A stretch of DNA of 38,621 nt from Patescibacteria group bacterium (lineage in GTDB: Bacteria > Patescibacteriota > WWE3 > UBA101185 > UBA10185): assembly GCA_026004595.1 (NCBI GenBank), contig BPJL01000009.1, positions 1-38,621 on the forward strand, given 5' to 3'. A program made the position numbers and the translations under genes. Under the pieces are notes generated by a model. The model was not told where the DNA came from and did no database searches. It worked only from the letters and a program-made list of their open reading frames with translations. Shown piece after piece: positions 734 through 38,621 of this stretch; the stretch's first letter is position 1, and the number at the start of each line of letters is the position of its first letter.

Positions 734-897
734 TTTTTTGCCTTTTATAAAGGAAAGGAAAAAAAGAAAGAAGTTGGAAAGAAAGACTTGAAGATGCTAG
801 TATGCCACTTGAGACAAAGTTGAAATTGAGGGATAAAATAATAAGAGAAAACCCAGATTTGGCAAAAAAGCTAGCACTTTTGTAAATTGTTGTTTTT

Positions 898-1144: not shown

Positions 1145-1151
1145 GGGAAGA

Positions 1152-2385: not shown

Positions 2386-3615
2386 AACATACTGGCCGAT
2401 TGAAAAACTAAAAGAATGGGATAAAAATCCCAGAACAATCTCAAAAGAGAATTTTGATAGACTAAAAGCTCAAATTAAGGAGGTTAGGGGAGTATAAGCC
2501 TCTTATTATAACCGAAGACGGCACTGTTTTAGGTGGGAATATGCGATTGAAAGCGTATAGGGAGTTAGGATTTAAAAAGTGTTGGGTATCAATAGTGAAA
2601 GCCGAGACAGAAGAGGAAAAAATAAAATATGCTTTATCTGATAACGACCAATTAGGAGAATATCAAAAAGATGATTTAGCTAATTTAATAGGTAGTATCC
2701 CCGATTTAGATTTGTCAAACTACACAATAAATTTAGGAACTTCAACAGTTATTCAAGATTTGTTAGATGAGTTTAAGGAAGTTGTTGAGGATGAAGTGCC
2801 GGAGGCAGAGGAAGGCGAACCAAAGAGTAAATTAGGAGAGGTTTATCAGTTAGGAAGACATAGACTAATGTGTGGAGACGCAACAAAAAAAGAGGATGTA
2901 GAAAAGTTGATGGGTGGAAAAAAAAGCAGATATGGTGCTTACTGATCCTCCTTATGGAGTAAGTTATGGAGACAAAAATGAATTCTTAAATGCTATTGAT
3001 CGTGGTAATAGAATACAAAAAAATTTACCCAATGATACTAAAAGTGTAAAAGAAATGAAAGATTTATGGACTCGTGCTTTTGTAAATCTTAATTTAGTTA
3101 CTAAAGAGGGAGGGTGTTATTATGGGTGTTCACCTCAAGGTGGGGAATTAATGATGATGATGATGATGAGCTGGTTGGAAGCAGGTTGGGAATTGAAACA
3201 ACAAATTATATGGGTTAAAAATAATATTGTTTTAGGCAGGAGCGATTATCATTATAAGCACGAACCTATTTTATATGGCTGGAAAACCGGGAAAGCCCAT
3301 CGGTTTTATGGAGGAAAAGGCGAAAATACTGTATGGGAAATAGATAAACCTCAAGTTAGTGATTTACATCCCACTATGAAACCCATAGCTCTTTGTGCAA
3401 GAGCAATAAAAAATAGCAGTAAGGAAGGGGATATAATTGTTGACACTTTCGGTGGTTCAGGCTCGACCCTCATCGCCTGTGAACAAACAAACCGCATTTG
3501 CAATATGATGGAGCTTGATCCTTACTATTGCGATGTTATTCGCAAAAGATGGTGGAAGTTTGTTAATAACGGTTCAGAGGAAGGGTGGGAAGAAAATACT
3601 CCTAAAATCCTATGA
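2372..3615 (+). CDS. ParB-like N-terminal domain fused to DNA N6-adenine/N4-cytosine methyltransferase (two frame breaks)
   Basis: ParB-like KPLIITEDGTVLGGNMRLKAY. Catalytic ADMVLTDPPYG is restored by dropping one A from the A8 run 2918-2925. SAM motif DTFGGSGSTLIA. First break lies near the G4 run 2487-2490. ATG at 2372. Confidence 0.85.
3151..3168 (+). repeat. (ATG)6 microsatellite encoding Met6 inside the methyltransferase
   Basis: atgatgatgatgatgatg, in frame with ORF 2914-3615 (GGELMMMMMMSWLEAGW). Confidence 0.9.
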
Positions 3616-4433
3616 AAAACGCTCAAAAGTATCTTAACTTTATAAAAGACAACTTTCTCATTGTTACCAAAGACGGAGAAATTAAGAGATTTGATGAAAC
3701 CGAAAACCACTGGAGGATTCAATCAAAGTTTATTTTAGAAGATGCTACAGGAAGGGATACTATCTTGAAAGCGAGGCAGATGGGACTTTCTAGTGTTATC
3801 CTTGCTTTATTTGCAGTTGATTTTATTGCTAAACCTAACTCTTACTCGATGGTGGTAGCAGATAAGTCTGATAATGCTGAGGATTTGTTAGCCCGAGTCA
3901 AATTCTACCTTAAAAGCTTTGAAGAAAAAAATAAAGTTAAATTGCTTTTAAAATACAACTCAAAGTATGAACTTTACAATGAGGAAATCAACTCAACCTA
4001 CAAAATAGGAACCGCAGAAAATAGAGAGGTGGGTAGATCTAAATCAATTTTTAACTTGCACCTTAGCGAATTTGCCTTCTACCCCGACCCAGAAGCTGTC
4101 TTACGATCTGCTCTTCAGGCGGTTGTTCCTAGAGGAAAGATTTTTATTGAAACTACCGCCAACGGTTTCAATTTCTTTAAAACCTTTTGGGAAGAATGCA
4201 AACAGGGGTTAAGAGACTTTAATCCGATTTTCTATGGTGCAAGCCAGTTTTACTCTAAAGAGTTTTTAGAAAGAAAGAAAAAAGAGTTGAAAGGGTATTA
4301 TTTGCAAGAGTATCCGGACTCTGATATTGAGAGCTTTATTGCCTCAGGTGAACTTTATTTTGCCAAAGAAAGCCTGAAGTGGTATTTGGACAATGTTAGA
4401 GAACCGATTAAAGAGGGGGTGATTTATATATGA
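3612..4433 (+). CDS. terL: large terminase, ATPase domain only (split gene, part 1)
   Basis: Walker A-like ILKARQMGLSS, Walker B-like IFNLHLSEFAF, and ETTANG. It stops at the expected interdomain linker (EPIKEGVIYI*). Confidence 0.8.
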   Translation: MKNAQKYLNFIKDNFLIVTKDGEIKRFDETENHWRIQSKFILEDATGRDTILKARQMGLSSVILALFAVDFIAKPNSYSMVVADKSDNAEDLLARVKFYLKSFEEKNKVKLLLKYNSKYELYNEEINSTYKIGTAENREVGRSKSIFNLHLSEFAFYPDPEAVLRSALQAVVPRGKIFIETTANGFNFFKTFWEECKQGLRDFNPIFYGASQFYSKEFLERKKKELKGYYLQEYPDSDIESFIASGELYFAKESLKWYLDNVREPIKEGVIYI

Positions 4434-9166: not shown

Positions 9167-10097
9167 ATGGCTTGGGGTAAAACAACTTATCAATCACCAA
9201 ATGAGGCTAGAGAATCTGTCTTAAGCATTATGAGAGACATCTCTCCTAATGAAGACAATTACTTTGTCTCTAACCTTGCAGTTGGTGCCCCTGCGATGAA
9301 CACTCTTCACCAGTGGAATATCTTCCACGAATCAAGAGTTTCATCTGTTACGGCCTGTAGTTGAGGGTGCTGATCCTAGCTATCCCGATCTGCAAGCTGA
9401 ACAAAGGGCAACCAACTACACCGTATTGGTGGATGCTCCTGTTAGACTTTCAAGCACTAAGGCTTCTATCGCTTCTGTTACTGGCGAAAAGCCGTTAGCG
9501 GTTGAAAAAGCTCGTGCCTTGAGAAGGCTAAAGAACAAAATGGAGTATCTTCTCATCAATGGAACAGCAGCAGCTGGTGATACTGGTACTGCTAGAGGTA
9601 TGGCGGGTATTGATGCGTTTATTACATCTAATGTAACCGCTAGAGCCTCTGGGACATCCTTTACAGAACAAGAGTTGAACGACATCATTCAGCAATCTTG
9701 GGACGCTGTAGGAAATTCCTATGTGGCTGATTTGATTGTTGCTCCTGTTGTTATTAAGAGGAGAATAGCTAGCTTTGGAACTAATTTGACCAGAACCATT
9801 CCCGCAGCTGATAAGAGGCTGACTAATGAGGTTAGGGTCTACGATTCCGAAGTTGGCCAGACAGTCAAAGTCATTGCTCACAAGGATGTTAGATCAGCTG
9901 CAGGAACATTGACTGTTCTTGCTATCCGTGAGGACTTGAGCCAGATGGCATTCTTAACAGGCGGAAATGAACCGCACTGGGAAGAATTCTCAAAGACTGG
10001 ATACTCCGTTAAGGGAGCTTATGTAACCGAATTTACCTACGTGGACCTTAACGAAAAGGCTAACGTAAAGAGGACAGGTTACTCAACAGGTCTGTAA
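9167..10097 (+). CDS. major capsid protein (one frame break)
   Basis: RESVLSIMRDISPNEDNYF..NTLHQW then VVEGADPSY..LAVEKARALRRLKNKMEYLLINGT. This matches the pattern I associate with the DUF5309/SU10-like capsid family. Strong SD, terminator downstream. The break (frame 2 to 0) lies within 9300-9364, most likely near 9350-9360. Confidence 0.7.
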
Positions 10098-27289: not shown

Positions 27290-28156
27290 ATGACTTTTGA
27301 GGAATTTATCAAAAAATACGACGGCAAGGGAATTGATTATGACAATGCGTTTTCTACGCAGTGTGTTGACCTTTATCGGCAATATGTTAAAGAGGTTTTG
27401 GGCTTTCCGCAAAGCCCTGCGGTAGAGGGAGCAAAGGATATTTGGGACACATATCTGCCAGAGTATTATGATAGAGTAGAAAACACGCCTTACGGCGTAC
27501 CTGAAAAAGGGGATATTGTAATTTGGGGGACAAAAGTAGGTAAATATGGGCATGTGGCAGTTTTTATTGAGGGCGACGCAAAGAGGTTTAAGAGTTTTGA
27601 TCAGAATTTCCCAGTTGGAAGCCTGTGTCATATACAAGAGCATACCTATAACGGTGTACTGGGGTGGCTAAAACCAAAGATTAAAAATATGGATATACCA
27701 GAGTGGTTTAAGACTTTACTGCAGGAAGCAAACCTCTCTTTTGATAGAGAGGGAGAATTTCGTGCTTTTTGGGAGAAAGCTAAAAAATACGATATTGAAA
27801 TCAGAGAATACAGCGAAAAAGTTTCTTCGCTAAACTCTCTTCTGGGAGACAAGGCTCAAGAGGTTTCAATGCTTGAGGACGCAAAAGCTAAATTACAAGC
27901 GAGGGTTGACGAACTAGACACTCTTTACAATAAGACAAAAATGGAAAAAGACGAAGAAGAACAAAGAGCCAATATGCTTTCTTATAAAGTTGAAAGTCTA
28001 ACCAAAGACCTGGAAAAGGCGAATAGCGAGATTTTACAATTAAAGGAGCAAATCAAATCATTGAAAGACGATAATATAGATGTCTTGAAAAAGATACCCA
28101 CCTTAAAATTGATTACAGAAGTTTTTGTGCGTATTTTTAACACAAAAAGGAGGTGA
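27290..28156 (+). CDS. CHAP-domain endolysin with long C-terminal coiled coil
   Basis: FSTQCVDLYRQYV (catalytic Cys) and GDIVIWG..KYGHVAVF (His) are CHAP motifs. Residues from about 140 to 288 are heptad-like (KLQARVDELDTLYNKTK..LKEQIKSLKDD). No SH3, LysM or choline-binding-type motif was seen. Confidence 0.8.
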   Translation: MTFEEFIKKYDGKGIDYDNAFSTQCVDLYRQYVKEVLGFPQSPAVEGAKDIWDTYLPEYYDRVENTPYGVPEKGDIVIWGTKVGKYGHVAVFIEGDAKRFKSFDQNFPVGSLCHIQEHTYNGVLGWLKPKIKNMDIPEWFKTLLQEANLSFDREGEFRAFWEKAKKYDIEIREYSEKVSSLNSLLGDKAQEVSMLEDAKAKLQARVDELDTLYNKTKMEKDEEEQRANMLSYKVESLTKDLEKANSEILQLKEQIKSLKDDNIDVLKKIPTLKLITEVFVRIFNTKRR

Positions 28157-29194: not shown

Positions 29195-30137
29195 AGAAAG
29201 AGGTTTATTCTACCCAGATGGCAGTTTTAGGGGCGAAGACGAGATTAGAAGAAGAAATCTCAAAGAGCCTAGTATCCAAAGACCTGTTCAAGAAAGAGGG
29301 GGGTCGTTTGACGACGATTTACGAAGAATGCAGGAAATTCAGAGGTTGAGGGAAGAACAAAAGCTTTGGAAAGATGAGGTCAAAATCAGTGTTCAAACCA
29401 ACCTTCCCTACTTTTTTTTGATGCCATTATCAGACATCCACTTAGGAGCCGAAGGAACAGACTATCAGGCAGTTAGAAAGTTTTTGGGGGTGGTTAAGGA
29501 TTATCCTGTTTATACTGTCCTTTTAGGGGATTTGGGTGATTTTTTCAATCCGTATAAACACCCTACGGGAATGGCTGAAGATGTGGTTAACGCCGATAGC
29601 CAGCTTCTTGCGATGAGAAACTTCTTCAAAGAATACAAAGAAAAAATCTTGGCGGTGGCGACGGGCAACCACGATGATTGGATTTACAAGACTTCGGGGA
29701 TTGAACCTTATAGGTGGGTCTGTCAAGACCTGAACATCCCCCTTCTTTACAGCGGAGGGAGACTAAATTTGCAGGTAAATGAAGTGAATTACAAAATTCT
29801 CCTTTATCACGCAATTGCTAGGTTTAATTCCTCATTCAATCCTACCCACGCAGGCAAAAGAATGCTTGAGCTTCACCACGATGCCGACATCGTAATTAGC
29901 GGAGACAAACACAGGTTTGGAATGGAGAAGCTGGTTCACAGAGATAAAAAGCCGTATATCGTGCAACTGGGAACTTTTAAGACTGGGGACACTTATGGCA
30001 AGCGAAGTTATGGGTTTGCCCCAGACTCCCAGATTGGTTTCCCAGTATTGTTTCTTTCAGCGGGAGAAAAGAATGTGGAGGCGATAGAAGATATAGAAAC
30101 CGCCAAACACTTTGTAGACCTTGTGAGAAAGGGGTAA
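29187..30137 (+). CDS. calcineurin-like metallophosphoesterase
   Basis: LSDIHLG, LLGDLGDFF, ATGNHDDW, and GDKH motifs in canonical order. Confidence 0.8.
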   Translation: MNKERGLFYPDGSFRGEDEIRRRNLKEPSIQRPVQERGGSFDDDLRRMQEIQRLREEQKLWKDEVKISVQTNLPYFFLMPLSDIHLGAEGTDYQAVRKFLGVVKDYPVYTVLLGDLGDFFNPYKHPTGMAEDVVNADSQLLAMRNFFKEYKEKILAVATGNHDDWIYKTSGIEPYRWVCQDLNIPLLYSGGRLNLQVNEVNYKILLYHAIARFNSSFNPTHAGKRMLELHHDADIVISGDKHRFGMEKLVHRDKKPYIVQLGTFKTGDTYGKRSYGFAPDSQIGFPVLFLSAGEKNVEAIEDIETAKHFVDLVRKG

Positions 30138-30146
30138 AATATAGAT

Positions 30147-30491
30147 ATGGGAACTGTTGACCTAATTACCGGACAGCCAGCACTTCATAAACACGGAGTC
30201 AACGACATCAAGACTTCTAATGCTCCAGACTCCACTAAGGTTCTATATGGGGACGGAAGTTGGCAAGAACCACCAGGGGCAACAAGCGGAGAAGCTAACA
30301 CTGGAGAAAATGTGGGGACAGGTGAGGGTTTGATTTACAAGGACAAAGTTGGCGTTGCTTTAAGGTTTAAATCCCTAAAACAAGGAACTGGTGCTGGAGT
30401 AATTGCAACCAATTCTGGAACGACAGCAACTCTACTTTGTTATCTTGATTGGATGGCGGTTTGGTTTGATAGGAGGGCTTTAACGAGATAA
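30147..30491 (+). CDS. orphan tail-fibre-like fragment
   Basis: HKHGVNDI..KVLYGDGSWQEPPG..NVGTGEGLIYKDKVGVALRFKSLKQGTGAG resembles fibre repeat modules. It is the last gene before the early promoter. Confidence 0.35.
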   Translation: MGTVDLITGQPALHKHGVNDIKTSNAPDSTKVLYGDGSWQEPPGATSGEANTGENVGTGEGLIYKDKVGVALRFKSLKQGTGAGVIATNSGTTATLLCYLDWMAVWFDRRALTR

Positions 30492-30500
30492 AATTGCCAC

Positions 30501-30529
30501 TTGACAAAATAAAAAGTGGTTGATATTAT
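30501..30529 (+). promoter_or_regulatory. sigma70-type promoter (early, P1)
   Basis: TTGACA at 30501-30506, 17-nt spacer containing TG at -15/-14, TATTAT at 30524-30529. The inverted repeat CCACTT/AAGTGG flanks the -35. Confidence 0.6.
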
Positions 30530-30546
30530 TTATTCAAATAAATAAA

Positions 30547-30801
30547 ATGAAAGTAAAAACTATTGTTATCAAAACGCCAACCCACCAAAAAGATTGTTTC
30601 AGACTTCACCTAATCGATTCTAAGGCGGGTATCTCAAGAAAGACGATAAAGACTACATTGTCAGCATTAAAAAGAAATATCAGGGGTAAGGGGTTGGTGA
30701 TGGTTAAGGTCGTTTACCCCGACAAAAGCACAAACCAAACAATTTCCTCAAACGATATTGATTATTTGGTTAACACAACAAGATGTTTCTTGAAGCTATG
30801 A
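30547..30801 (+). CDS. hypothetical protein
   Basis: ATG 30547 lies inside ORF 30520-30801 (MKVKTIVIKTPTHQK..). First gene after P1, no SD. Confidence 0.5.
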   Translation: MKVKTIVIKTPTHQKDCFRLHLIDSKAGISRKTIKTTLSALKRNIRGKGLVMVKVVYPDKSTNQTISSNDIDYLVNTTRCFLKL

Positions 30802-31001
30802 TACCACCAGAGTTTTGGCTCAATTGTAAAAAATCTAATGCATACAAAAAAAAGGCTGACGATTGGTTTTTTATGGCACAGAAGTGGAAGGCGGGGAGCA
30901 TCGAAAGACAAATTTGTGAACTGAAAGTAAAACTCTACGAGAGAGAATCACTAAAATATCTGTTGAGAGCTAATGCTGTCATCCAAAAAAAATATGAGTG
31001 A
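30783..31001 (+). CDS. hypothetical protein
   Basis: 72-aa ORF overlapping both neighbours. Confidence 0.4.
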   Translation: MFLEAMIPPEFWLNCKKSNAYKKKADDWFFMAQKWKAGSIERQICELKVKLYERESLKYLLRANAVIQKKYE

Positions 31002-31230
31002 GACACAAGATATCGAAAAATACACTAAATTACAACGAATTATGAACATCTTCCAAAAAATCAGTCAGATATCTTGGTGGTATGACCAGGCGAAAAAGAG
31101 ATACCCCGCTCCGGAAGCGATGACGACAGACGAAATCGACAAACTTACCCAATATCTTCTGACATTAGGGGATGACCTAGAAGACGCTTACAAGGACTGG
31201 AAAAAGGAGGCTAAAAATTATGGGAATTGA
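30973..31230 (+). CDS. hypothetical protein
   Basis: 85-aa ORF. SD AAAAGGAGG for the next gene lies near its end. Confidence 0.45.
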   Translation: MLSSKKNMSETQDIEKYTKLQRIMNIFQKISQISWWYDQAKKRYPAPEAMTTDEIDKLTQYLLTLGDDLEDAYKDWKKEAKNYGN

Positions 31231-32704
31231 TGAAATCATAAAATACGAACAGGAGATAGATTTGGATGTTCCTGTAGCCGAATTGGACGAGAAACAAATA
31301 AAGAAACAAAAAAACAAAAATGTTGTTTATGTGTCGCAGCTAAATACTACAGGATTTATTTTAGAAGAAATCATTGAGCAAAAAAATGCGGACTATGCGG
31401 ACTATGCGGTCGCACCAGAAACCGCCAAAGAAAAATTCTTGAAGCTAGACAAAGAGACGGGAGAGGTAGAAATAATAGATGAAATAGAAATAGGTGGTAT
31501 ATATTATAGGCCATTAAATTCCAAGTTGGTAGAAAGCCAAACAATCTATTTACCGTCGGGGGTAGAAGAATATGGCTCAACCTCTAAACTTATAAGTGAA
31601 ATATCTGATTATCTCAACTTTTATTTTGATGTAGATGATACAATGAAAAAGATTTTACCAACCTATGTATTGTTTACTTGGGTTTTTGACAAGTTTCCTT
31701 TTGTTCCCTATCTTCACTTCGTAGGGAGAACGGCAACGGGCAAGACCACCGCAGGGGAAACATTAGTATCTATCTGCTACAAAGGGATAGATGCTACTGG
31801 AGCCACCAGTCAGGCGGCTATCTTCAGGGTAGCTGATGAGTGGGGGGGAACAATCTTTTTAGATGAGTTTAACGCCGACGCTAAAGACCAAGAAATGATA
31901 GCTTTCTTAAAAAGCGGGGTTTCGGACAGAGCTGTTTTGAGAGTGGAAGCGGAAGGCAAAAACTTTAAGGTTGTTCCTTATAAGGTGAAATCACCAAAAA
32001 TCTTTACATCTGAAAATGTAATTACAGACGCAGGACTTCAATCAAGGACTTTAACTATCAAAATGGAAGCTTCAAAAAGACTATTACCATTATTTAAGTT
32101 ATCAGATTATTATACTAAAGGACAGGTATTGAGAAATAAACTACTAAAGTGGAGATTAGATAATATATATAATAATAATATAAAGCTTAAAGATATAGAA
32201 TATGGATTTAAAGAATTTATACATCTAGATAGAAGGGTTCAGCAAATTATTACCCCTATTTACTACTTATCAGATGAAGAGGGAAAAATCAGAATACAAG
32301 AATTTGCCAAAGAGCAAGAGATAAAAACAAAGGAGGAGAGACTCTCTAGCGAAGAAGGAAGTGTCTTTAAGTTAATTTATGATTACTATATAGCCAACGG
32401 AGAGAACCCCACCTTAAAGTCGATTACAGAAAGCCTAAACGCACAAAGAGAGGAGCTTGGCTACAAGACAAAAAGAAGTGAAAAGTCAATAGCCTCTATC
32501 GTTAGAACTGTATTAGGATTGCCTATAGTAATGGTAGGACACGACAAAACCAGAACAATTATAGTTGATGATAACAGAGAAAAAGTAGAAGAATTAGTAA
32601 ATTACTACGGGCTCGACAATTCATTGTTGGCGGTGTTTTCAGCGACCGCACAGTCCGCAACGACCGCAACTTTAGAAGATGTAAAAGAGATATTTTCAGA
32701 CTAA
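31220..32704 (+). CDS. P-loop NTPase, probable replication initiator/helicase-type ATPase
   Basis: Walker A GRTATGKTT, Walker B-like GGTIFLDEFNAD. 494 aa, intact, in the replication module. Confidence 0.5.
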   Translation: MGIDEIIKYEQEIDLDVPVAELDEKQIKKQKNKNVVYVSQLNTTGFILEEIIEQKNADYADYAVAPETAKEKFLKLDKETGEVEIIDEIEIGGIYYRPLNSKLVESQTIYLPSGVEEYGSTSKLISEISDYLNFYFDVDDTMKKILPTYVLFTWVFDKFPFVPYLHFVGRTATGKTTAGETLVSICYKGIDATGATSQAAIFRVADEWGGTIFLDEFNADAKDQEMIAFLKSGVSDRAVLRVEAEGKNFKVVPYKVKSPKIFTSENVITDAGLQSRTLTIKMEASKRLLPLFKLSDYYTKGQVLRNKLLKWRLDNIYNNNIKLKDIEYGFKEFIHLDRRVQQIITPIYYLSDEEGKIRIQEFAKEQEIKTKEERLSSEEGSVFKLIYDYYIANGENPTLKSITESLNAQREELGYKTKRSEKSIASIVRTVLGLPIVMVGHDKTRTIIVDDNREKVEELVNYYGLDNSLLAVFSATAQSATTATLEDVKEIFSD

Positions 32705-32709
32705 AAAAT

Positions 32710-33075
32710 ATGAAAAAAAATAATCCTATAACAATACCAGCAAAATACCAAATCATTTTTGACAAGCTTATGGCAAAACAAAATTACTTTTATCTTGACA
32801 CTTTAGCCTTCTTAATAGCTTGGAGAAACGAAAACAAACTTCAAATTCCGGTGGGAGAAGAATACCTGTTTTCAGGAACCTCAAAAGAGGGAATTTTTAT
32901 CAAGATGATAGTCACTTTAGTAGAAAACCTGTTTGCAGAAAACGAGAATTATCCGTTTGACTCTGACGCAAGAAGACTCGGACACGACTTTGCCAAGTGG
33001 ATTTTAAGGCAACCGCTAAACTTTAGACCGCCTATCAGTATGCACGCAGAAATAGCAAGTCTATGGAAGAACTAA
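32710..33075 (+). CDS. hypothetical protein
   Basis: 121-aa ORF. Confidence 0.5.
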   Translation: MKKNNPITIPAKYQIIFDKLMAKQNYFYLDTLAFLIAWRNENKLQIPVGEEYLFSGTSKEGIFIKMIVTLVENLFAENENYPFDSDARRLGHDFAKWILRQPLNFRPPISMHAEIASLWKN

Positions 33076-33332
33076 TCGGTGAATTACGAGAAGTTTTGGT
33101 TGAGTTCGGCTTCACCCAAAGGTGGGCTGAAATAGAGAAGTGGTGGATGGTGGGAAAGACAATCCACGAGTTTAGCGTTAGACCATCGGACATTCCCACC
33201 CTTGCCGACGAATTAGAAGTTGAGCCCGCAGACCTCTGGGACGCAATTCTTTTTTATAAGAAATATCCCGACCTTACCCTGTTCCCTGAAGGCAAAAATG
33301 CAAGTTGGGATAAAATCCGGGAAAGCCTATGA
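33063..33332 (+). CDS. hypothetical protein
   Basis: 89-aa ORF overlapping both neighbours. Confidence 0.5.
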   Translation: MEELIGELREVLVEFGFTQRWAEIEKWWMVGKTIHEFSVRPSDIPTLADELEVEPADLWDAILFYKKYPDLTLFPEGKNASWDKIRESL

Positions 33333-33860
33333 GAAAATGTGCCTACTGCCTAAAGCGTTCAAAATGCCCCTACAAAAAGGGCAAAAAACACTTTTGCTCA
33401 AAGGAGCACAAAACTCTCTATTATGAGAATGATATTAAAACCCTCAAAAAACAAATCCAGATTGAATTTAACAAAATGATTACTGAGAACCAACCTTGTG
33501 CTTACTGTGGAAAAAGGTTTGTAAAGATGGATTGTTCACACATCCTCTCTCGTGGAAGTTGCGACCACTTGAGGTTTGATTACTTAAATGTTTTACCACT
33601 TTGTTCGAGGCATCATGAATTTTTTTTGGCATCAGTCTCCGCTTGAGGCAATAGAATGGTTCAAATCAAAATATCCGGAACGATATGATTACCTCTTATT
33701 TGCCCGAAACCAGTTTAGGGGTTGGACAGTGGAGGAGTTGAAACAAATTAGACAAGATGTTAAAAACAAAAATGTAAAAGGATTGGTCAGGTTTTACAAA
33801 GAATATGAGCTATATTTACTGGAACAAGAAAGGAAAGCTAACCCTTCGCAGGGGAACTAA
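33329..33860 (+). CDS. NinG/Rap-like recombination endonuclease (one frame break)
   Basis: CAYCGKRFVKMDCSHILSRGSCDHLRFDYLNVLPLCSRHH matches the lambda NinG-type pattern (C..CG...H..S.G....LRF...N....C). The break lies in the T8 run 33620-33627. Confidence 0.55.
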
Positions 33861-33921
33861 AATCTGGAAGCAAACAACCAGAAAAGACTGGATAAGGATT
33901 TTACACCGAAGACTTAAAAAC

Positions 33922-33951
33922 TTGACAGGAGTATAGTCAATAGGGTATAAT
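33922..33951 (+). promoter_or_regulatory. sigma70-type promoter (early, P2)
   Basis: TTGACA at 33922-33927, 18-nt spacer ending AATAGGG, TATAAT at 33946-33951. ATG 33959 lies 7 nt downstream. Confidence 0.6.
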
Positions 33952-33958
33952 ACTGTTA

Positions 33959-34132
33959 ATGGACAAAATAACTCCCGAAAAAGTTGAAAGAAACAGGCAG
34001 CTCTACGAAGATTACAAGAGAAAAATGAGTCTTGTTGATCTAGTGACTAAATACCAAATTACTCCCGCTAGAATTTACGAAATCATAAGGAGAGAAAAAA
34101 AGAGGGAAAAACAGGCACAAATTGCCTCTTGA
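33959..34132 (+). CDS. small HTH protein (57 aa)
   Basis: MSLVDLVTKYQITPARIYEIIRREKK looks like a helix-turn-helix. Not in the ORF track (under 60 aa). Its stop TGA overlaps the -35 of P3. Confidence 0.5.
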   Translation: MDKITPEKVERNRQLYEDYKRKMSLVDLVTKYQITPARIYEIIRREKKREKQAQIAS

Positions 34133-34157
34133 CAAGTGGGTAGAATAGGGATACTAT
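34129..34157 (+). promoter_or_regulatory. sigma70-type promoter (early, P3)
   Basis: TTGACA at 34129-34134, 17-nt spacer ending AATAGGGA, TACTAT at 34152-34157. ATG 34167 lies 9 nt downstream. Confidence 0.5.
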
Positions 34158-34166
34158 AAAACCAAT

Positions 34167-34349
34167 ATGAAGAAAATAAAAGTAGTGAACACCCAAAGAG
34201 AAGACATTGTTTTCCACATTGACCTTTTAGACCACCTTGCCAAAAGAGTAGAAGAATTTTTTGAATTAGATCCCAGAGAAGCCAGAGGATATTTGTCAGA
34301 TTTAAGAGCCAGTCTTAAAAGGTGGAAGAACAAAATTGGATCGAAATGA
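34167..34349 (+). CDS. hypothetical protein
   Basis: 60-aa ORF directly after P3. Confidence 0.5.
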   Translation: MKKIKVVNTQREDIVFHIDLLDHLAKRVEEFFELDPREARGYLSDLRASLKRWKNKIGSK

Positions 34350-35341
34350 AAACGAATAGCTGGTCAATTTACAAACTTTGGAACGATAGCGTCTTAGAAG
34401 CCAAAAAACTTAGGGAGAGAAAACGAGAACCCAGAGAAATTTTGTTTGCATCTGAACTTGGCAAATCTTATATCGACCTTTGGTACACACTAAAAGGCGA
34501 AGAACCCACCAACGACTTTACCGAAACCGCACTTCGAAAGTTTGACGCAGGAATAATTTGGGAAAAAGTCTTTGAGACAATTTACAAAAGAATGGGTATT
34601 CTGATTGAAACCCAGAAAAGCCTTAAACTTGAAATGCCAAATTGCCTGCCGGTTTGGGGAAGACTTGACTTCTTAGTTGGGGGAAAACTCGACAAGGAAA
34701 AAGCCAAATCTCAAATTGACGAAATCAAAGACCTGCTCCCCGAAAATGTCTATCAAACCTCGCTTTTAATTCTTGATAAACTTCCGGAAGAATTAAAGGA
34801 AATCGTGCTTGAAATCAAATCCGTATCTTCTTTTATGTTTGAAAAGTATCTCGAAGGAAACAAACCAAATGCAAACCACAGGATACAGATTGCAACCTAC
34901 TTGAAGGGATTGAACCTAGATGAAGGTCACATCCTTTACATCAACAAAGACGACGCAAGACTACTGGAGCTTGGAGTATTTAATCCTTCTTTTGCAACCG
35001 ATGAACTTGAAGCGTTTGTAAAAGGATTTAGCCAATATTGGTTTGCCAACGAAGAACCACCAAAAGAAAAGGAAATCGTATTTGATGAAGAACTAAACAA
35101 GTTTGCCGTGAATTGGAAAATAATTTATAGTCCCTACCTAACTAAGATTTACGGCTACAAAGACCGAACTGAAGTCGAAGACAAATTCAAGCCAATAGTG
35201 GAAAGGTGGAATAGGGTTTTGGGAAGAATTAGAGACGAAAAAGATTTGACCGACAACAACCGAGACGCACTCGAAGAAATGAAAGAATATGGGTTTGATT
35301 TAGAAAAAATTGGAAAGGGGGTGAACAGTGATGGCGTTTAA
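34346..35341 (+). CDS. PD-(D/E)XK exonuclease, RecB/Cas4-like
   Basis: WGRLDFLVGG (motif II Asp), VLEIKSVSS (ExK), HRIQIATYLK (QxxxY) in canonical order. ATG 34346 is ATGA-coupled to the previous stop. Confidence 0.65.
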   Translation: MKTNSWSIYKLWNDSVLEAKKLRERKREPREILFASELGKSYIDLWYTLKGEEPTNDFTETALRKFDAGIIWEKVFETIYKRMGILIETQKSLKLEMPNCLPVWGRLDFLVGGKLDKEKAKSQIDEIKDLLPENVYQTSLLILDKLPEELKEIVLEIKSVSSFMFEKYLEGNKPNANHRIQIATYLKGLNLDEGHILYINKDDARLLELGVFNPSFATDELEAFVKGFSQYWFANEEPPKEKEIVFDEELNKFAVNWKIIYSPYLTKIYGYKDRTEVEDKFKPIVERWNRVLGRIRDEKDLTDNNRDALEEMKEYGFDLEKIGKGVNSDGV

Positions 35342-35696
35342 GAAGTTTGAACCAGAAAGAAACGAGGTTTGGAAGCCTGAAAAGCAAGGAGATATGATTG
35401 AAGGATATTTCGTAAGTAGCAGAAGAGTCCAAACCGTGAATGGTGTTTCAAACCTTTATTCAATTAAAACCGATAAAGAGGTTAAAGATGTCTGGGGGAC
35501 AGCCTTGCTTGATAATTTTTTCCAGAACATTCCTGTGGGTTGCAAAGTAAGACTTACCTATCAGGGAAAAATGAAATCACAAAAAGGTGGTAGAAGCTAC
35601 CACGCCTTTACTTTGGAATATGATCAAGAGGATATTCTAAAAGCAGAGGAAGAAAGCACTGTAACAGATAAAGACATTGAGGAGATTTTCGGCTAG
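35331..35696 (+). CDS. OB-fold-like protein, ssDNA-binding candidate
   Basis: About 120 aa, beta-rich core, acidic C-terminal tail ..EEESTVTDKDIEEIFG reminiscent of SSB tails. It follows the exonuclease gene. Confidence 0.35.
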   Translation: MAFKKFEPERNEVWKPEKQGDMIEGYFVSSRRVQTVNGVSNLYSIKTDKEVKDVWGTALLDNFFQNIPVGCKVRLTYQGKMKSQKGGRSYHAFTLEYDQEDILKAEEESTVTDKDIEEIFG

Positions 35697-35699
35697 TCT

Positions 35700-35748
35700 C
35701 CTCACAAGGCGGGTTGGCGGTCAATGCCAGCGAACCCGTCCTGTGAAG
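35700..35748 (+). terminator. long GC-rich hairpin without a U-tract (terminator, processing or binding site?)
   Basis: CTCACAAGGCGGGTT (35701-35715) pairs with AACCCGTCCTGTGAAG (35733-35748): about 13 bp with 1 mismatch. The 17-nt loop has an internal GGC/GCC pairing. It lies between the SSB-like gene and P4. Confidence 0.35.
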
Positions 35749-35766
35749 AGATTAGAAAATTACCAC

Positions 35767-35795
35767 TTGACAAAATTGAAAATAGGGTATAAACT
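35767..35795 (+). promoter_or_regulatory. sigma70-type promoter (early, P4)
   Basis: CCACTTGACAAAAT is identical to P1 around the -35 (35767-35772). AATAGGGTATAAAC follows. The -10 is TAAACT (17-nt spacer) or TATAAA (15-nt spacer). ATG 35803 lies 7 nt after TAAACT. Confidence 0.5.
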
Positions 35796-35802
35796 AAAAA
35801 CA

Positions 35803-36112
35803 ATGAAACTAACAAAAGATTTTCAAAATCTAAATTATCTCTCACAAGGAGAGCATTCTCTTGAAGAAGTGTTGAGATTAGCTGGACTTGAAGAAGAAAA
35901 GCCAGAAAACGACGATGGATTTTGCTCGGTTTGTGGAAGTGAGCTAGAGGTGGGGGGAAGACGAAAGTTTTGATGAAGATGGATTAGTGGTTTTACCTTA
36001 TTTGTATTGTCCTAGGTGCAAAGAAAAAAATATGAGCTTATCAGATATTCTAATTGAAAGTTATAAAAATCTTAACGAAAAGGAAAAAAAAGAGAAATGG
36101 TTGAGAGAATGA
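35803..36112 (+). CDS. Zn-ribbon protein (one frame break)
   Basis: CSVCGSE...YCPRCKE is recovered after a shift at the G6 run 35952-35957. Confidence 0.45.
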
Positions 36113-36174
36113 AAAAAATTACTTTTTGAAATTAATGTTTTCTTAAATGTTTTGGAATTGGAGGAACAAGGAAA

Positions 36175-36960
36175 ATGGGCTGGCTAAGAATTAGTGAATT
36201 AGCCAAAAAATACGGAGTTTCTTACCGCACACTTTATCGGTTTTTGTGCATAAGTATGGTATGCCTTCAAAGAAGGCTTTAATGTTGGTTGAATATGTTG
36301 GAAGCGGTGGAAAATTTGACAAAGAGGTAAAAAAAAGAAAACAAAAAAGAGAGGTTTTGATGGTCAGGGAAGAGGATTGGCTTGATGTTCCGACTTTTTT
36401 AAGAAAAAAAATACGAAAAAAAATGATAACCGAAAACAGACAGCTTAACACAATTCTCACTAGATTTTTGACAGCTCTTGTTATTGTTTTAGTTTTTGGG
36501 ATTGTAGATGTTCAAAGAGACAAGGAAGTTGCCCAAGCCGTATCTAATGTGATTGAGACGCCGAAACCCACCCCAGAATTGATTACAGAAGCCCAGAAGA
36601 CTAATGTAGATGTTGTAGAGGGTAAAATCAGAAAAGGAAAAAAATTGAAGAATACATCAGGGAAAAATTTGGAAAAGATGCCGACAAAGCTTTTTTGCTT
36701 TTGAGTGGAAATGAAAACTGCGGTGGGGAAAACCCCAGACTCGATCAAAGAGCCGTGAATATCAATAAGGACGGTTCAAAGGATTTTGGAATTTTCCAAA
36801 TAAATGATAAATATCACCCGGTTTATAGGCTTAATCTACATACCGATCTGGAGAGCAAACATTGACTATGCCTACCGGATGTTCGTTAACGATGCAGACT
36901 ATACCTTTCACTCGGAGGTGGGCAACTGCAAAATGCCTTTTGAGGCACGGAATAAAAATT
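36175..36960 (+). CDS. bitopic membrane protein: N-terminal HTH-like region, FtsZ C-terminal-peptide-like motif, TM helix, lysozyme-like/SLT domain (about 3 frame breaks; 3' end uncertain)
   Basis: WLRISELAKKYGVSYRTLYRF. EEDWLDVPTFLRKKIRKK at 36381-36410. TM FLTALVIVLVFGIV. LLLSGNENCGGENP..AVNINKDGSKDFGIFQINDKYH..NIDYAYRMF resembles lysozyme-like transglycosylases. Confidence 0.5.
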
Positions 36961-36978
36961 TAAAAAAAGAAGATAAAA

Positions 36979-37197
36979 ATGAAAAGAGAAAAACAAACAT
37001 CATTAAAAGACACTCAAAAAAAACAGATATGTTATATTTGTGGTGAAAAAGAAGAGGAATTAGAGTATCGTGGCTGGTATTCTAAAAACGGAAAAGTCAT
37101 ATGCTATGATTGCCACGAATGCCGTTTACTAGAAAAAAATGAAAATAAACTTAACCGAAAACATAACCAAACAAAAAAAAATCTCAACAAGCGATAA
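36979..37197 (+). CDS. Zn-ribbon protein
   Basis: CYICGE...CYDCHEC; Lys-rich ends. Confidence 0.5.
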   Translation: MKREKQTSLKDTQKKQICYICGEKEEELEYRGWYSKNGKVICYDCHECRLLEKNENKLNRKHNQTKKNLNKR

Positions 37198-37389
37198 AAA
37201 GTATTCAAGTGAGATAAAGACAATGAACTTTTGTGTTCAGAACCGAAAATTAGACAATGATGAGGGAAGCAGATGGTCTGCACGGGACAGAAAGTTGAAA
37301 TTAAGGTGAATGGTAAAACTTATAAAGCTACGATCCAGTAATTTTTCAGTTGGCGGGGGACATATAATTTTTATATTACGGAGGAAAAA

Positions 37390-37545
37390 ATGAAAAAACA
37401 AGACCTTGAAAAACTTAAACATATTTTTTTCGAGAAGTTGGAGCGAAAAAACGGGGTGGGGAAAAGAAGAAGTCAAGAAGCTTTGGCTGGAAGCCGTTAT
37501 TGAGTTTTTAGTTGGAGGAGGAAGAAAAATGAAAAGAAGGGGGTG
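37390..37545 (+). CDS. hypothetical small protein (one frame break)
   Basis: SD GGAGG precedes ATG 37390. MKKQDLEKLKHIFFEKLERK then ..GWGKEEVKKLWLEAVIEFLVGGG. Confidence 0.35.
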
Positions 37546-37550
37546 AAATT

Positions 37551-37910
37551 ATGTCAGATTTAATAGACAAAGACAAAATAGAAAAACTAGTTGTTGACGC
37601 AATTAGCAGATACCTTGATGAGGATTATTTAAGGGGCTTTATTGCGAAAGTGGTTTCAAGTGCCCTCAACGATAGGGCAGACTATTATGGCAACGAAACA
37701 GTAATTGAAAAAAAGTTGAAAGAAAAAGTTAGGGAAATAGCAATGCAAGAGTTGGAGAAGGAGCTGGATAAAAATAAAGAGCGGATTAGGAAGGCAGTAA
37801 AAAAGATTTTAGAGGAAAAGGGGTTGGACATTATTATAGAGAGAATTTCAAGATCGTCAGCTCAAAAAATAGCGGAAGCAATACAGATAGAGGCGTGGCT
37901 GGAGGAGTAA
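37551..37910 (+). CDS. hypothetical helical protein
   Basis: SD GGGGGTGA precedes ATG 37551. 119 aa, charged and helical. Confidence 0.55.
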   Translation: MSDLIDKDKIEKLVVDAISRYLDEDYLRGFIAKVVSSALNDRADYYGNETVIEKKLKEKVREIAMQELEKELDKNKERIRKAVKKILEEKGLDIIIERISRSSAQKIAEAIQIEAWLEE

Positions 37911-37917
37911 TAGAAAT

Positions 37918-38190
37918 ATGAAAGTTTATAGAATTTATGAGCCATATCATGAAAGTTCCGAGAGCGGAACTGTTGATTATGGAATTTTCTCAAGCAAAGA
38001 CAAGGCAATTGAGGTGCTGAAAAAGATTTGTAAAGAAAAAAGAAAAAAAAACGGAAAGCGTTGGAATTTTTGCAAGAGAGGAAGGTTGCCATATCTGTTT
38101 TATTTGGCTTGGGATGAATCTCGTTGTGTTTATATCAAAGAGTATGATTTAGACAAAGAAATCTTGGAAGATATAGTTGGTTATACATAA
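37918..38190 (+). CDS. hypothetical protein
   Basis: 90-aa ATG ORF. Confidence 0.5.
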   Translation: MKVYRIYEPYHESSESGTVDYGIFSSKDKAIEVLKKICKEKRKKNGKRWNFCKRGRLPYLFYLAWDESRCVYIKEYDLDKEILEDIVGYT

Positions 38191-38212
38191 AGAACTAGAG
38201 GAAGAGAGAAAA

Positions 38213-38412
38213 ATGAAAAAAAAATTACTGAGGTAAAAGTTAAACACTATTTTAGGTTGGTTTGTGCTGATTGTGGGCAAGACCTTGGTGCGATAGAACC
38301 TAATTTTTTTGGGTCTGATTCTCAAATTTTTTTAATTTTAGATAAAGAATGTTTTAATTGTCACGGTAAGAATTTAGAAGTGCTTGTTTCTAGCTTAAGA
38401 TTAAAGAAGTGA
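38213..38412 (+). CDS. Zn-ribbon protein (frame break in an A-run at the start)
   Basis: ATG 38213 followed by an A9 run, then ..VKHYFRLVCADCGQ...CFNCHGK. Confidence 0.4.
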
Positions 38413-38621
38413 AAATCAACATATCCGAAAACACAATTAAAGAATACAAAATTTCAACAAGCGATTATAAATATTCTGTTGAATTGAAAATCACTGATGA
38501 TTTTATAGAAATTAACAACAACTATGGAGAAGGATTTGTTTTTCAAAACATCAAAGACGAAAAAACTATTGCTAAATGGAAAAAAATTATTGGGCTTATC
38601 AACGAGGCTATAAAGATAGCT
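38409..38621 (+). CDS. hypothetical protein, open at the window end (wraps to nt 24 if circular)
   Basis: GTG 38409 overlaps the previous stop. 71 codons end exactly at the window end. In a circular read-through it stops at TGA 22-24. Confidence 0.4.
   Translation, partial: MKINISENTIKEYKISTSDYKYSVELKITDDFIEINNNYGEGFVFQNIKDEKTIAKWKKIIGLINEAIKIA

What the first reader, a model, noticed from the sequence alone, without database searches (positions are those of the whole stretch)
36175..36960. FtsZ C-terminal-peptide look-alike placed next to a TM helix and fused to a lysozyme-like domain
Within ORF 36246-36704 the peptide EEDWLDVPTFLRKKIRKK (nt 36381-36410 encode LDVPTFLRKK) closely matches the conserved extreme C-terminal peptide of FtsZ. 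B. subtilis has ..DDTLDIPTFLRNRNKRG and E. coli has ..DYLDIPAFLRKQAD. The match includes the following basic variable tail.

In FtsZ this peptide is the docking site for FtsA, SepF, ZipA, EzrA, ZapD and MinC. Here it sits about 14 residues before a TM helix (FLTALVIVLVFGIV). By the positive-inside rule it would be cytoplasmic, with the SLT/lysozyme-like domain (..NINKDGSKDFGIFQIN..) outside the membrane.

That architecture suggests one of two roles. The phage protein could compete with FtsZ for its membrane anchors and block division. Or FtsA/SepF could recruit it so that a peptidoglycan hydrolase is delivered to the septum. The known phage FtsZ inhibitors I can recall (lambda Kil, T7 gp0.4) do not work by mimicking the FtsZ tail.
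Basis: partly seen in the sequence, partly recalled or inferred. Interest (0 to 1): 0.7.

Follow-up and report, generated by a model that had tools for sequence, protein, structure and literature searches.

The report
Phage DNA-binding protein with FtsZ-like tail
The FtsZ-tail look-alike is real and conserved, but it is the C-terminal end of a separate small phage DNA-binding protein, not part of the membrane-anchored lysozyme-like gene next door; it may be the first viral copy of the peptide that FtsZ uses to dock on its partners.

Summary
Its likeness to the FtsZ C-terminal peptide is not chance. A profile of the 24 C-terminal residues from 17 family members was searched against 177,635 PDB sequences. 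It returned only four hits, all FtsZ, each at its extreme C-terminus (B. subtilis, E = 0.001).

The proposed architecture does not hold. All 23 homologues of the lysozyme-like (SLT_3) protein start at the Met of MITENRQ (ATG 36424). The motif belongs to an upstream gene (36175 to about 36423) for an ~82-aa MerR/excisionase-type winged-helix protein. Every relative of that protein is a separate 62-102-aa ORF with its own stop. The in-frame "fusion" depends on two A8 runs in an assembly full of indel frameshifts.

This small protein defines a rare family of uncultured low-GC phages, all annotated "hypothetical". The motif [ED]E[DS][WF]L[ED][IV]P[TA][FY][ILV]R[NK] plus a basic tail is its best-conserved stretch. 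The gene usually follows a recombinase/nuclease module.

My best reading, at about 0.45, is a mimic of the FtsZ tail that engages FtsA, SepF or similar partners. The main rival is a structural or DNA-binding element of an excisionase-like regulator. Delivery of the hydrolase to the septum is not supported.

The parts
36160..36164 (+). GGAGG Shine-Dalgarno-like sequence, 10 nt before ATG 36175
   Evidence: Read directly from the sequence.
36175..36423 (+). Gene for a small (~82 aa) MerR/excisionase-type winged-helix protein ending in the FtsZ-tail-like motif. In the assembly it is broken at the T5 run 36241-36245 and has no stop before 36424.
   Evidence: Pairwise BLASTP against the 76-aa L006 protein P0028 gives 38% identity, E = 2e-15. 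A family of 62-102-aa proteins was found by exhaustive HMMER. Pfam HTH_17 matches 10 of 18 members. AF2 and Foldseek give a MerR/RacA/BldC-like fold.
36241..36245 (+). T5 homopolymer where the reading frame of the small gene breaks. One more T or two fewer would restore it.
   Evidence: Frame arithmetic, and the alignment to the family.
36369..36410 (+). The motif EEDWLDVPTFLRKK, the FtsZ C-terminal-peptide look-alike.
   Evidence: for the sequence. PDB profile hits are only FtsZ C-termini. NCBIfam FtsZ_alphas_C is hit by 5 of 18 members.
36404..36423 (+). Two A8 runs (36404-36411 and 36416-36423) flanking TACG. Their lengths decide whether the small gene stops here, for example at a TGA overlapping ATG 36424, or reads through.
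   Evidence: six of the eight variants in which one or both runs are miscalled by one base give a stop within 25 codons of EDW. A9/A9 gives ..LRKKNTKKK* with an ATGA overlap.
36424..36963 (+). Gene for a membrane-anchored SLT_3/lysozyme-like protein (~179 aa after frame repair): a short N-terminus, a TM helix, a Pro/Thr-rich linker and the catalytic domain. Frame breaks are at the A7 run 36638-36644, the extra c at 36848 and the extra c at 36909. The stop codon is 36961-36963.
   Evidence: 23 homologues of 154-220 aa are co-linear from the first Met. Several homologues carry precomputed PF18896 SLT_3 hits. The window's own sequence scores below threshold.
36466..36507 (+). The TM helix FLTALVIVLVFGIV of the SLT_3 protein (residues 15-28 counted from ATG 36424).
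   Evidence: The sequence itself, and a conserved hydrophobic N-terminal segment in all homologues.
36728..36730 (+). Codon of the invariant Glu (..CGGEN..). I infer it is the catalytic residue of the SLT_3 domain.
   Evidence: This is invariant column E103 in alignment A1. The catalytic role is inference.
34322..35341 (+). Cas4-domain/PD-(D/E)XK exonuclease gene of the early recombination module that lies upstream of the small gene (context).
   Evidence: PHROGs hits phrog_1706 and phrog_1990. It is near-identical to L002:1245-2231.

Best explanation
Two adjacent genes have been run together by an error-prone assembly.

Gene 1 (36175 to about 36423) encodes an ~82-aa cytoplasmic MerR/excisionase-type winged-helix protein. 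Its last ~20 residues copy the conserved C-terminal peptide of FtsZ: acidic residues, then L-[DE]-[IV]-P-[TA]-[FY]-[LIV]-R, then a short basic tail. Gene 2 (36424-36963) is a separate membrane-anchored SLT_3 lysozyme-like protein.

Gene 1 belongs to a rare, unannotated family found in uncultured low-GC phages. In this family the FtsZ-like peptide is the best-conserved element.

Proposed mechanism (inferred, not shown): the exposed IPxF[LIV]R peptide docks into the pockets with which host proteins recognise the FtsZ tail. Candidates are FtsA and SepF, and possibly EzrA, MinC or ZapD. Binding of a single tail is weak. The winged-helix domain probably supplies multivalency by dimerising or by cooperative binding to DNA. 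The outcome would be one of two things: competition with FtsZ for its membrane anchors, giving a transient division block early in infection, or attachment of the DNA-bound protein to the divisome or membrane.

Shown here: gene separation by homology, family-wide motif conservation, specific similarity to FtsZ C-termini, the winged-helix fold, and the early/recombination-module context. Inferred: exposure of the peptide, its partner, and the physiological effect.
For: Gene separation:
- All 23 SLT_3 homologues start at the Met equivalent to ATG 36424, and none carries the motif.
- L006/L017/L018 have a 76-aa ORF ending ..DEQDWFEIPTWVRKRNQKK*, two nt before their SLT_3 gene. It is 38% identical to the window protein.
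- The closest relative of the window (L002/L003) lacks the small gene entirely.
- The assembly is visibly frameshifted in the methyltransferase, terminase and major head protein genes and at least four times in 36175-36963.
- Most single-base corrections of the two A8 runs create a stop.

Family and conservation:
- Exhaustive HMMER found 16 further small proteins at E from 6e-12 to 4e-4. Scans of the contig collections found nine more loci: L027 encodes one of those proteins and L028-L035 carry further members.
- The motif columns are the most information-rich run. P and R are invariant, and the tails are 4-32 aa and basic.

Specific FtsZ likeness:
- The 24-column profile A7 searched against 177,635 PDB sequences gave four hits at E <= 10. 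All are FtsZ, at residues 369-381 of 382, 368-380 of 383, 370-382 of 385 and 381-391 of 394. The best is B. subtilis LDIPTFLRNRNKR, E = 0.001.
- The full-length profile also ranks FtsZ first.
- NCBIfam TIGR03483, the FtsZ C-terminal extension model, is hit by 5 of 18 members.
- The family consensus LEIPTF[IL]RNK is closer to FtsZ than the window's own copy.

Support for the mechanism:
- Fragments of the extreme FtsZ C-terminus inhibit growth in vivo and are predicted to bind FtsA subdomain 2B and ZipA. F377 and L378 are key ZipA contacts (PMC10769210). The family conserves the equivalent positions.
- Phage early operons encoding division inhibitors have a precedent in lambda Kil (PMC11762379).
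Against: - There is no binding or phenotype data, and no host is known, so the host FtsZ tail could not be compared.
- The motif has no disordered linker like the one that precedes it in FtsZ. It starts inside the last helix of the winged-helix domain.
- AF2 models residues 61-70 of P0028 (DWFEIPTWVR) with pLDDT 84 as helix-kink-helix. The hydrophobic residues may therefore pack on the domain and be conserved for folding.
- The ending ..dLeaWl is usual for HTH_17 excisionase domains (my knowledge of Pfam PF12728).
- The tight synteny with ERF/Rad52 recombinases and a PD-(D/E)XK nuclease suggests a role in DNA transactions.
- Basic C-terminal tails are common DNA-contacting arms.
- The E-values for the FtsZ match are modest (0.001 to 1.4).
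Confidence: 0.45

Rival explanations
1. The small protein is an ordinary excisionase-like or MerR-like phage regulator, a recombination-directionality factor or an early transcription factor. The conserved C-terminal segment is the last helix of the fold plus a basic arm that contacts DNA or a phage partner such as the nuclease, the recombinase or an integrase. The FtsZ resemblance is convergent and has no functional meaning.
For: - HTH_17 matches 10 of 18 members, TIGR01764 'excise' matches 5 of 18, and phrog_66 'excisionase and transcriptional regulator' matches 6 of 18.
- Structural neighbours are RacA, MerR, BldC, a phage P2 DNA-binding protein, and AlpA/TorI-like viral models.
- The motif region is modelled as ordered, with pLDDT 84.
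- Synteny with recombination genes is constant.
Against: - The conserved residues extend well past the usual end of the HTH_17 domain, into IP[TA]F[LIV]R[NK].
- They match FtsZ tails specifically in two independent libraries, and nothing else in the PDB reaches E <= 10.
- No integrase was found among the window ORFs scanned.
- The HTH-only hits of the exhaustive search lack the motif.
Confidence: 0.35
2. The assembly is right at the A runs, and this phage makes a fused protein: winged helix, FtsZ-like peptide, TM helix, then an extracytoplasmic SLT_3 domain.
For: In the assembly there is no stop between 36246 and 36704. The two genes are adjacent in two diverged lineages, so a fusion by loss of the stop codon is conceivable.
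Against: - Every relative on either side is a separate ORF.
- The same 800 nt contain at least four indel frameshifts, and the junction consists of two A8 runs.
- Even as assembled, the small gene is itself broken at 36241-36245, so the winged helix is not in frame with the rest.
Confidence: 0.07
3. The acidic ..EED.LEIPTF.. segment imitates the SSB C-terminal tip (..DDDIPF), not FtsZ. It would recruit replication or recombination proteins that bind SSB, which fits the recombination-module context.
For: The D/E-rich run followed by I-P-x-F resembles the SSB tip (my knowledge of E. coli SSB). The gene sits beside recombinase and nuclease genes.
Against: - Known SSB-tip receptors need the free carboxylate of the terminal Phe (established knowledge). 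Here the Phe is followed by an invariant [LIV]R and 4-32 more residues.
- No SSB appeared in the PDB profile search at E <= 10, while four FtsZ sequences did.
Confidence: 0.05
4. In this particular genome the frameshifts are real mutations, and both genes are decaying pseudogenes.
For: There are at least five frame breaks between 35900 and 36960. Two of them, at 36848 and 36909, are not in long homopolymers.
Against: Essential genes elsewhere (terminase, major head protein, methyltransferase) are also fragmented, which points to sequencing or assembly error. Apart from the frame breaks, the reading frames still match their homologues, at 38% identity for the small gene and 40-60% for SLT_3.
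Confidence: 0.06

Closest known systems
Conserved C-terminal peptide of FtsZ (CTP/CCTP) with its variable basic tail
   Same: It shares the same core (acidic residues, L-[DE]-[IV]-P-x-[FY]-[LIV]-R) and the same near-C-terminal position, followed by a short and often basic tail. The B. subtilis sequence LDIPTFLRNRNKR aligns to the family consensus LEIPTFiRnrykk.
   Different: It is attached to a ~60-aa winged-helix domain instead of a tubulin-like GTPase. No ~50-residue disordered linker precedes it. Position -3 is usually Trp or Phe. This is not homology to FtsZ as a protein.
Lambda Kil (also T7 Gp0.4 and Qin DicB): small phage or prophage inhibitors of host cell division
   Same: They are small early phage proteins. 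Lambda kil sits in the early operon next to the recombination genes (my knowledge). Kil acts through an FtsZ membrane anchor, ZipA (PMC11762379).
   Different: There is no sequence similarity. None of them is reported to carry an FtsZ-tail copy, and three literature searches found nothing (a fourth, only brought up the Kil paper). Kil is a 47-aa helical hairpin, not a winged-helix domain.
Excisionase/MerR-type HTH_17 proteins (Pfam PF12728, TIGR01764; for example BldC, TorI, AlpA and the RacA DNA-binding domain)
   Same: They share the fold (strand, two helices, a beta-hairpin wing, a C-terminal helix) and weak profile hits.
   Different: The family adds a conserved IP[TA]F[LIV]R[NK] segment and a basic tail that those families lack. 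Its beta-hairpin wing is unusually long. The window's own sequence scores below the Pfam cut-off, at 19.3 bits against 27.
DNA-binding proteins that couple DNA to the division machinery (SlmA, Noc, MatP, RacA)
   Same: Each combines a DNA-binding domain with a contact to the division or polar machinery. SlmA is itself a receptor of the FtsZ tail (Du et al. 2015, cited).
   Different: Those proteins bind FtsZ, the membrane or DivIVA. This protein would instead present an FtsZ-like tail to the receptors of FtsZ. The function is untested.
Inhibitory FtsZ C-terminal fragments (Savinov et al.; FragFold, PMC10769210)
   Same: A free copy of the FtsZ tail is enough to inhibit E. coli growth and is predicted to bind FtsA and ZipA.
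   Different: Those are laboratory fragments of FtsZ itself. This is a natural phage gene with an unrelated scaffold.

Membership tests
FtsZ (tubulin/FtsZ GTPase family) | N-terminal tubulin-like GTPase domain | tested here: not met
   There is no Tubulin/FtsZ Pfam hit for any piece. The protein is ~82 aa with a winged-helix fold.
FtsZ C-terminal peptide (short linear motif) | Sequence core [DE]-[IV]-P-x-[FY]-[LIV], flanked by acidic residues upstream and R/K downstream | tested here: met
   The window has EEDWLDVPTFLRKK. The family profile hits only FtsZ C-termini in the PDB and the NCBIfam FtsZ C-terminal model.
FtsZ C-terminal peptide (short linear motif) | Located at the extreme C-terminus, followed only by a short variable tail | tested here: met
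   In 21 relatives the tail after the invariant Arg is 4-32 residues and then a stop. For the window itself this depends on the A-run lengths.
FtsZ C-terminal peptide (short linear motif) | Presented on a long intrinsically disordered linker | tested here: not met
   The motif directly continues the last helix of the domain. pLDDT is 84 over DWFEIPTWVR in the AF2 model.
FtsZ C-terminal peptide (short linear motif) | Binds FtsA, ZipA, SepF, MinC, ZapD or SlmA | not testable with these tools
   No complex prediction or experiment is available here.
Excisionase / HTH_17 (PF12728, TIGR01764) | Profile match above the curated threshold | tested here: inconclusive
   10 of 18 family members match HTH_17, with best E = 7e-7. 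The window sequence scores 19.3 bits against a cut-off of 27. TIGR01764 matches 5 of 18.
Excisionase / HTH_17 (PF12728, TIGR01764) | Winged-helix fold of MerR/excisionase type | tested here: met
   AF2 mean pLDDT is 85.9. The Foldseek neighbours are RacA, MerR, BldC, P2 DNA-binding and phage MerR/excisionase models, but the matches are weak (E about 0.01-0.1, TM about 0.5-0.6).
Excisionase / HTH_17 (PF12728, TIGR01764) | Works with a cognate integrase encoded in the same element | tested here: inconclusive
   No integrase was found among the 29 window ORFs scanned, but the window is frameshifted and not every ORF was scanned. L001, which has an integrase, lacks the small gene.
SLT_3 lysozyme-like domain (PF18896), for the downstream gene | Profile match and conserved catalytic Glu with the GxFQIN motif | tested here: inconclusive
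   Eight of the 23 homologues aligned with it carry precomputed PF18896 hits. Invariant E, FQ.N and HP columns are. Membership is by homology, at 40-60% identity to the homologues.
Known phage division inhibitors (Kil, Gp0.4, DicB) | Sequence or fold relationship to one of them | tested here: not met
   No such hit appeared in Pfam, PHROGs or NCBIfam. The function was not tested.

The most novel reading that the evidence does not exclude
A family of phage winged-helix proteins carries a working copy of the FtsZ C-terminal peptide. By binding DNA cooperatively, or by oligomerising, they present many tails at once. They would then either displace FtsZ from FtsA or SepF, arresting division, or hook phage DNA to the division or membrane machinery. 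This would be the first viral mimic of the central docking peptide of the bacterial divisome.
Probability: 0.38. Interest if true: 0.8.

Novelty: new variant of a known kind. Interest (0 to 1): 0.6.

Why it matters
Nearly every regulator and membrane anchor of bacterial division docks on the FtsZ tail, and the tail is a proposed antibiotic target. A natural, evolutionarily tuned mimic would show that phages exploit this hub by copying a short linear motif. That strategy is familiar from eukaryotic viruses but is barely documented in phages.

Such a mimic would also supply a compact scaffold that presents the peptide. It could serve as a probe for which partners the tail engages in poorly studied, uncultured low-GC lineages.

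Even if the mimicry idea fails, the work corrects a mis-assembled gene pair and defines a previously unannotated small-protein family tied to phage recombination modules.

Tried and rejected
- Word-indexed homology search with the repaired 83-aa protein found no candidates. With the two-sequence alignment it found only P0028 itself.
- Scans of viral and genome contigs with the single protein or the two-sequence alignment found nothing. The 18-sequence alignment was too diverse for pattern scans, but a 7-sequence subset worked.
- Looking upstream of SLT_3 homologues in IMG/VR for the small gene found none among 10 loci.
- No cultured phage encodes a relative by tblastn. There was no DNA match of the window's last 8.6 kb (30000-38621) to GenBank phages, and no second copy of the junction in IMG/VR.
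- Host identification failed. There are no tRNAs and no portal relatives in 185,579 genomes. MAG labels for relatives are scattered and sit on short contigs: Omnitrophota, Saccharibacteria, Gracilibacteria and DPANN. Sample accessions do not appear in the literature library.
- A shuffle test timed out and was replaced by an analytic expectation.
- The promoter and terminator scan was uninformative.
- I considered and rejected these readings: an FtsZ homologue, an SSB-tip mimic, a beta-clamp motif, and septal delivery of the SLT_3 enzyme by a fused tail.
Full report
**1. What is in the sequence**

The region 36175-36960 is read in three frames.
- Frame A starts at ATG 36175, ten nucleotides after a GGAGG. 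It gives MGWLRISELAKKYGVSYRTLYRF, a helix-turn-helix start.
- At the T5 run 36241-36245 the sense continues in the frame of ORF 36246-36704: ..VHKYGMPSKKALMLVEYVGSGGKFDKEVKKRKQKREVLMVREEDWLDVPTFLRKKIRKK, then M-ITENRQLNTILTRFLTALVIVLVFGIVDVQ...
- At the A7 run 36638-36644 the sense moves to a third frame: KIEEYIREKFGKDADKAFLLLSGNENCGGENPRLDQRAVNINKDGSKDFGIFQINDKYHPVYRLNLHTD.
- After an extra c at 36848 it reads WRANIDYAYRMFVNDADYTF. After an extra c at 36909 it reads TRRWATAKCLLRHGIKI, then a stop at 36961-36963.

The expected number of chance matches in the six-frame translation of the window is about 0.012 for D[IV]Px[FY][LIM]R and 1.4e-4 for the extended pattern.

**2. The lysozyme-like protein does not contain the motif**

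A search with the repaired 262-aa read-through found 23 homologues of 154-220 aa (P0002-P0024).
- All have a short N-terminus, one hydrophobic helix, a Pro/Thr-rich linker and an SLT_3-type domain.
- All begin at the Met that corresponds to ATG 36424. Examples are P0008 MITKNKNTNKILTNFLIALILALVFGVLDV and P0005 MISQNKALDDFLKKFILSLVIVMAFGVVDVQ.
- None carries the FtsZ-like peptide.
- The closest relative of this part of the window is L002/L003, with 80-89% DNA identity across the upstream genes. There a zinc-ribbon gene is followed after 11 nt by the SLT_3 gene, with no helix-turn-helix gene between them.

**3. The motif ends a separate small protein**

- In L006/L017/L018 a 76-aa ORF ends two nucleotides before the SLT_3 gene. 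Its sequence is MAKITLRELAKREGQDFFRLYNWVKRGWLPAKKRVVEVDYVKSNGNAGKKKMEVWVVDEQDWFEIPTWVRKRNQKK*. It is 38% identical to the repaired window protein over the full length (E = 2e-15).
- I built a profile from this protein and the two window pieces and ran it through all 1.84 billion representative proteins. It recovered 16 further small proteins of 62-102 aa. Pattern scans of the contig collections found nine more loci: L027 encodes one of those proteins (P0034) and L028-L035 carry further members.
- Every one is a free-standing ORF with its own stop.
- In the window the absence of a stop rests on two A8 runs (36404-36411 and 36416-36423). Of the eight variants in which one or both runs are miscalled by one base, six create a stop within 25 codons. 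A9/A9 gives ..LDVPTFLRKKNTKKK* with the TGA overlapping ATG 36424.
- The assembly is demonstrably error-prone. The DNA methyltransferase, large terminase and major head protein are present only as fragments. The zinc-ribbon gene just upstream is also split into two ORFs; by my reading of the sequence the break falls at a G run near 35950. The 790 nt under study carry four breaks.
- I therefore read this locus as two genes, with a probability of about 0.9.

**4. The family and its motif**

- Pfam HTH_17 matches 10 of 18 members, with best E = 7e-7. TIGR01764 'excise' matches 5, and phrog_66 'excisionase and transcriptional regulator' matches 6.
- AF2 with the family alignment gives a confident model, with mean pLDDT 85.9. 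The model has a strand, two helices, a long beta-hairpin, a helix at 59-64 (EQDWFE), a kink at I-P, a short helix at 67-70 (TWVR), and a less confident tail.
- Foldseek neighbours are weak but consistent: the RacA DNA-binding domain, a MerR regulator, BldC, a phage P2 DNA-binding protein, and phage MerR/excisionase/AlpA/TorI-like models.
- Column statistics on 22 sequences show the most conserved run is E-E-[DS]-[WF]-L-[ED]-[IV]-P-[TA]-[FY]-[ILV]-R-[NK]. Pro and Arg are invariant. A basic tail of 4-32 residues follows.
- Every database name for these proteins is 'hypothetical protein'. No cultured phage has a relative.

**5. Is it really FtsZ-like?**

I tested this without using FtsZ as input.
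- A profile of the 24 C-terminal columns (A7) was searched against all 177,635 distinct PDB sequences at E <= 10. It returned four sequences, all full-length FtsZ, each matched at its extreme C-terminus:
  - B. subtilis, 369-381 of 382, LDIPTFLRNRNKR, E = 0.001
  - two E. coli-type sequences, EPDYLDIPAFLRK, E = 0.16
  - a further FtsZ (2vaw), DYLDIPAFLRR, 381-391 of 394, E = 1.4
- The whole-protein profile also puts FtsZ first.
- Among 18,950 NCBIfam models, the FtsZ C-terminal-extension model TIGR03483 ties with 'excise' as the family matched by most members, 5 of 18.
- The family consensus (LEIPTF[IL]RNK) is closer to FtsZ than the window's own copy.
- The positions equivalent to E. coli I374, F377 and L378 are conserved. 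PMC10769210 names F377 and L378 among the most important ZipA contacts.

**6. Context**

The window looks like a complete phage genome.
- The contig is 38,621 nt. It has a T7-type portal and fragments of terminase and head protein.
- It has a CHAP endolysin at 27290-28153, whose distant relatives are in phages of Gram-positive bacteria.
- It has a Cas4-like exonuclease at 34322-35341.

In the relatives the small gene almost always follows, often with overlapping stop and start codons, a module of single-strand annealing protein (ERF or Rad52), a ~140-aa protein and a ~180-aa PD-(D/E)XK-like protein. The downstream neighbour varies. It is the SLT_3 gene only in the window and the L006 lineage.

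The host is unknown. There are no tRNAs and no prophage relatives of the portal. MAG labels are scattered and sit on short contigs.

**7. Mechanism**

The best-supported reading is a mimic of the FtsZ tail carried on a DNA-binding-type scaffold.
- A free FtsZ tail is known to inhibit growth and is predicted to bind FtsA and ZipA (PMC10769210).
- A single tail binds weakly. FtsZ gains avidity by polymerising (Du et al. 2015, cited).
- Excisionase-like and BldC-like proteins bind DNA cooperatively (my knowledge), which could supply the same multivalency.
- The consequence would be either competition with FtsZ for its anchors or tethering of DNA to the divisome or membrane.
- Early-operon placement beside recombination genes has a precedent in lambda kil (my knowledge; Kil's dependence on ZipA is from PMC11762379).

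Against this reading:
- The motif abuts the folded domain and is modelled as ordered.
- 'dLeaWl' endings are normal for HTH_17 domains.
- The synteny points to DNA transactions.

I put the mimic at about 0.45 and the 'ordinary regulator or excisionase-like element, resemblance convergent' reading at about 0.35.

**8. What falls away**

With two genes, the peptide is not juxtamembrane and cannot deliver the SLT_3 enzyme to the septum by covalent linkage. The SLT_3 protein stands on its own as a membrane-anchored muramidase/transglycosylase-like enzyme encoded in the early region, separate from the CHAP endolysin. Its role was not pursued.

**9. Novelty**

Three literature searches found no report of a phage protein carrying an FtsZ-tail copy; a fourth only brought up the Kil paper used for comparison. 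The known phage division inhibitors Kil, Gp0.4 and DicB are unrelated and work differently.

I class this as a new variant of a known kind. The known kind is small phage proteins aimed at the host division machinery, or alternatively decorated excisionase-type HTH proteins. The central claim is still to be tested experimentally.

Noticed in passing
window 2914-3615, 3612-4433, 9426-10097, 35677-36112: The DNA methyltransferase, large terminase and major head protein are present only as partial ORFs matching the middle of their PHROG profiles. The zinc-ribbon gene upstream of the finding is also split into two ORFs; by my reading the break falls at a G run near 35950. The whole assembly appears to carry indel errors, mostly at homopolymers.
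   Followed up: partly
window 35973-36424 compared with L002:2990-3001: The closest related phage contig (JGI 3300038964 Ga0401068_000820) goes from the zinc-ribbon gene straight into the SLT_3 gene. The small winged-helix gene is therefore a presence/absence polymorphism at this junction.
   Followed up: yes
window 36424-36963 and 27290-28153: The phage has two peptidoglycan-hydrolase-type genes: a CHAP endolysin in the late region, and a membrane-anchored SLT_3 protein in the early/recombination region. The role of the second one is unexplained.
   Followed up: no
window 35328-35696: This 122-aa protein (phrog_28379, function unknown) ends in an acidic ..DKDIEEIFG. Its L002 homologue ends ..EKEIEEIFNA. 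The ending is reminiscent of the acidic C-terminal tips of single-strand DNA-binding proteins.
   Followed up: no
window 37133-37206 and 38403-38476: A 74-nt direct repeat at 80% identity covers the starts of two small ORFs, MKINLTENITKQKKISTSDKKYS.. and VKINISENTIKEYKISTSDYKYS... These are probably paralogous small genes.
   Followed up: partly
window 508-1445 and 36644-36883 compared with L001:2940-4346: In L001 the SLT_3 gene is followed directly by genes that match the start of the window. The window is probably a complete, circularly permuted genome whose ends join.
   Followed up: partly
L002:5659-6507 and L017:6640-7272: IS605 OrfB/TnpB (Cas12f-like) genes sit inside related phage contigs, close to the same early region.
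   Followed up: no
window 37551-37910 and 37918-38190; L030:298-923: A conserved pair of small genes (119 aa and 90 aa) lies about 1 kb downstream of the winged-helix gene in the window and directly downstream of it in L030. The first has a weak hit to 'FtsH ternary system domain X5' (E = 2e-4).
   Followed up: no
P0028 residues 54-71 (L006:2927-2980): The motif region of the L006 protein gives a weak hit (E = 0.0014) to the C-terminal end of Pfam DUF7428. I could not find out what that family is, and no paper mentions it.
   Followed up: partly
L024:1911-2342, L027:2212-2631, L029:1420-1845, L030:1638-2063, L033:2036-2461, L035:661-1086: A conserved ~140-aa protein (MKTNIKQKTR..GIQ.TS..NF..HHKKM..) recurs within about 1.5 kb downstream of the winged-helix gene in many relatives. 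It has no Pfam hit.
   Followed up: partly
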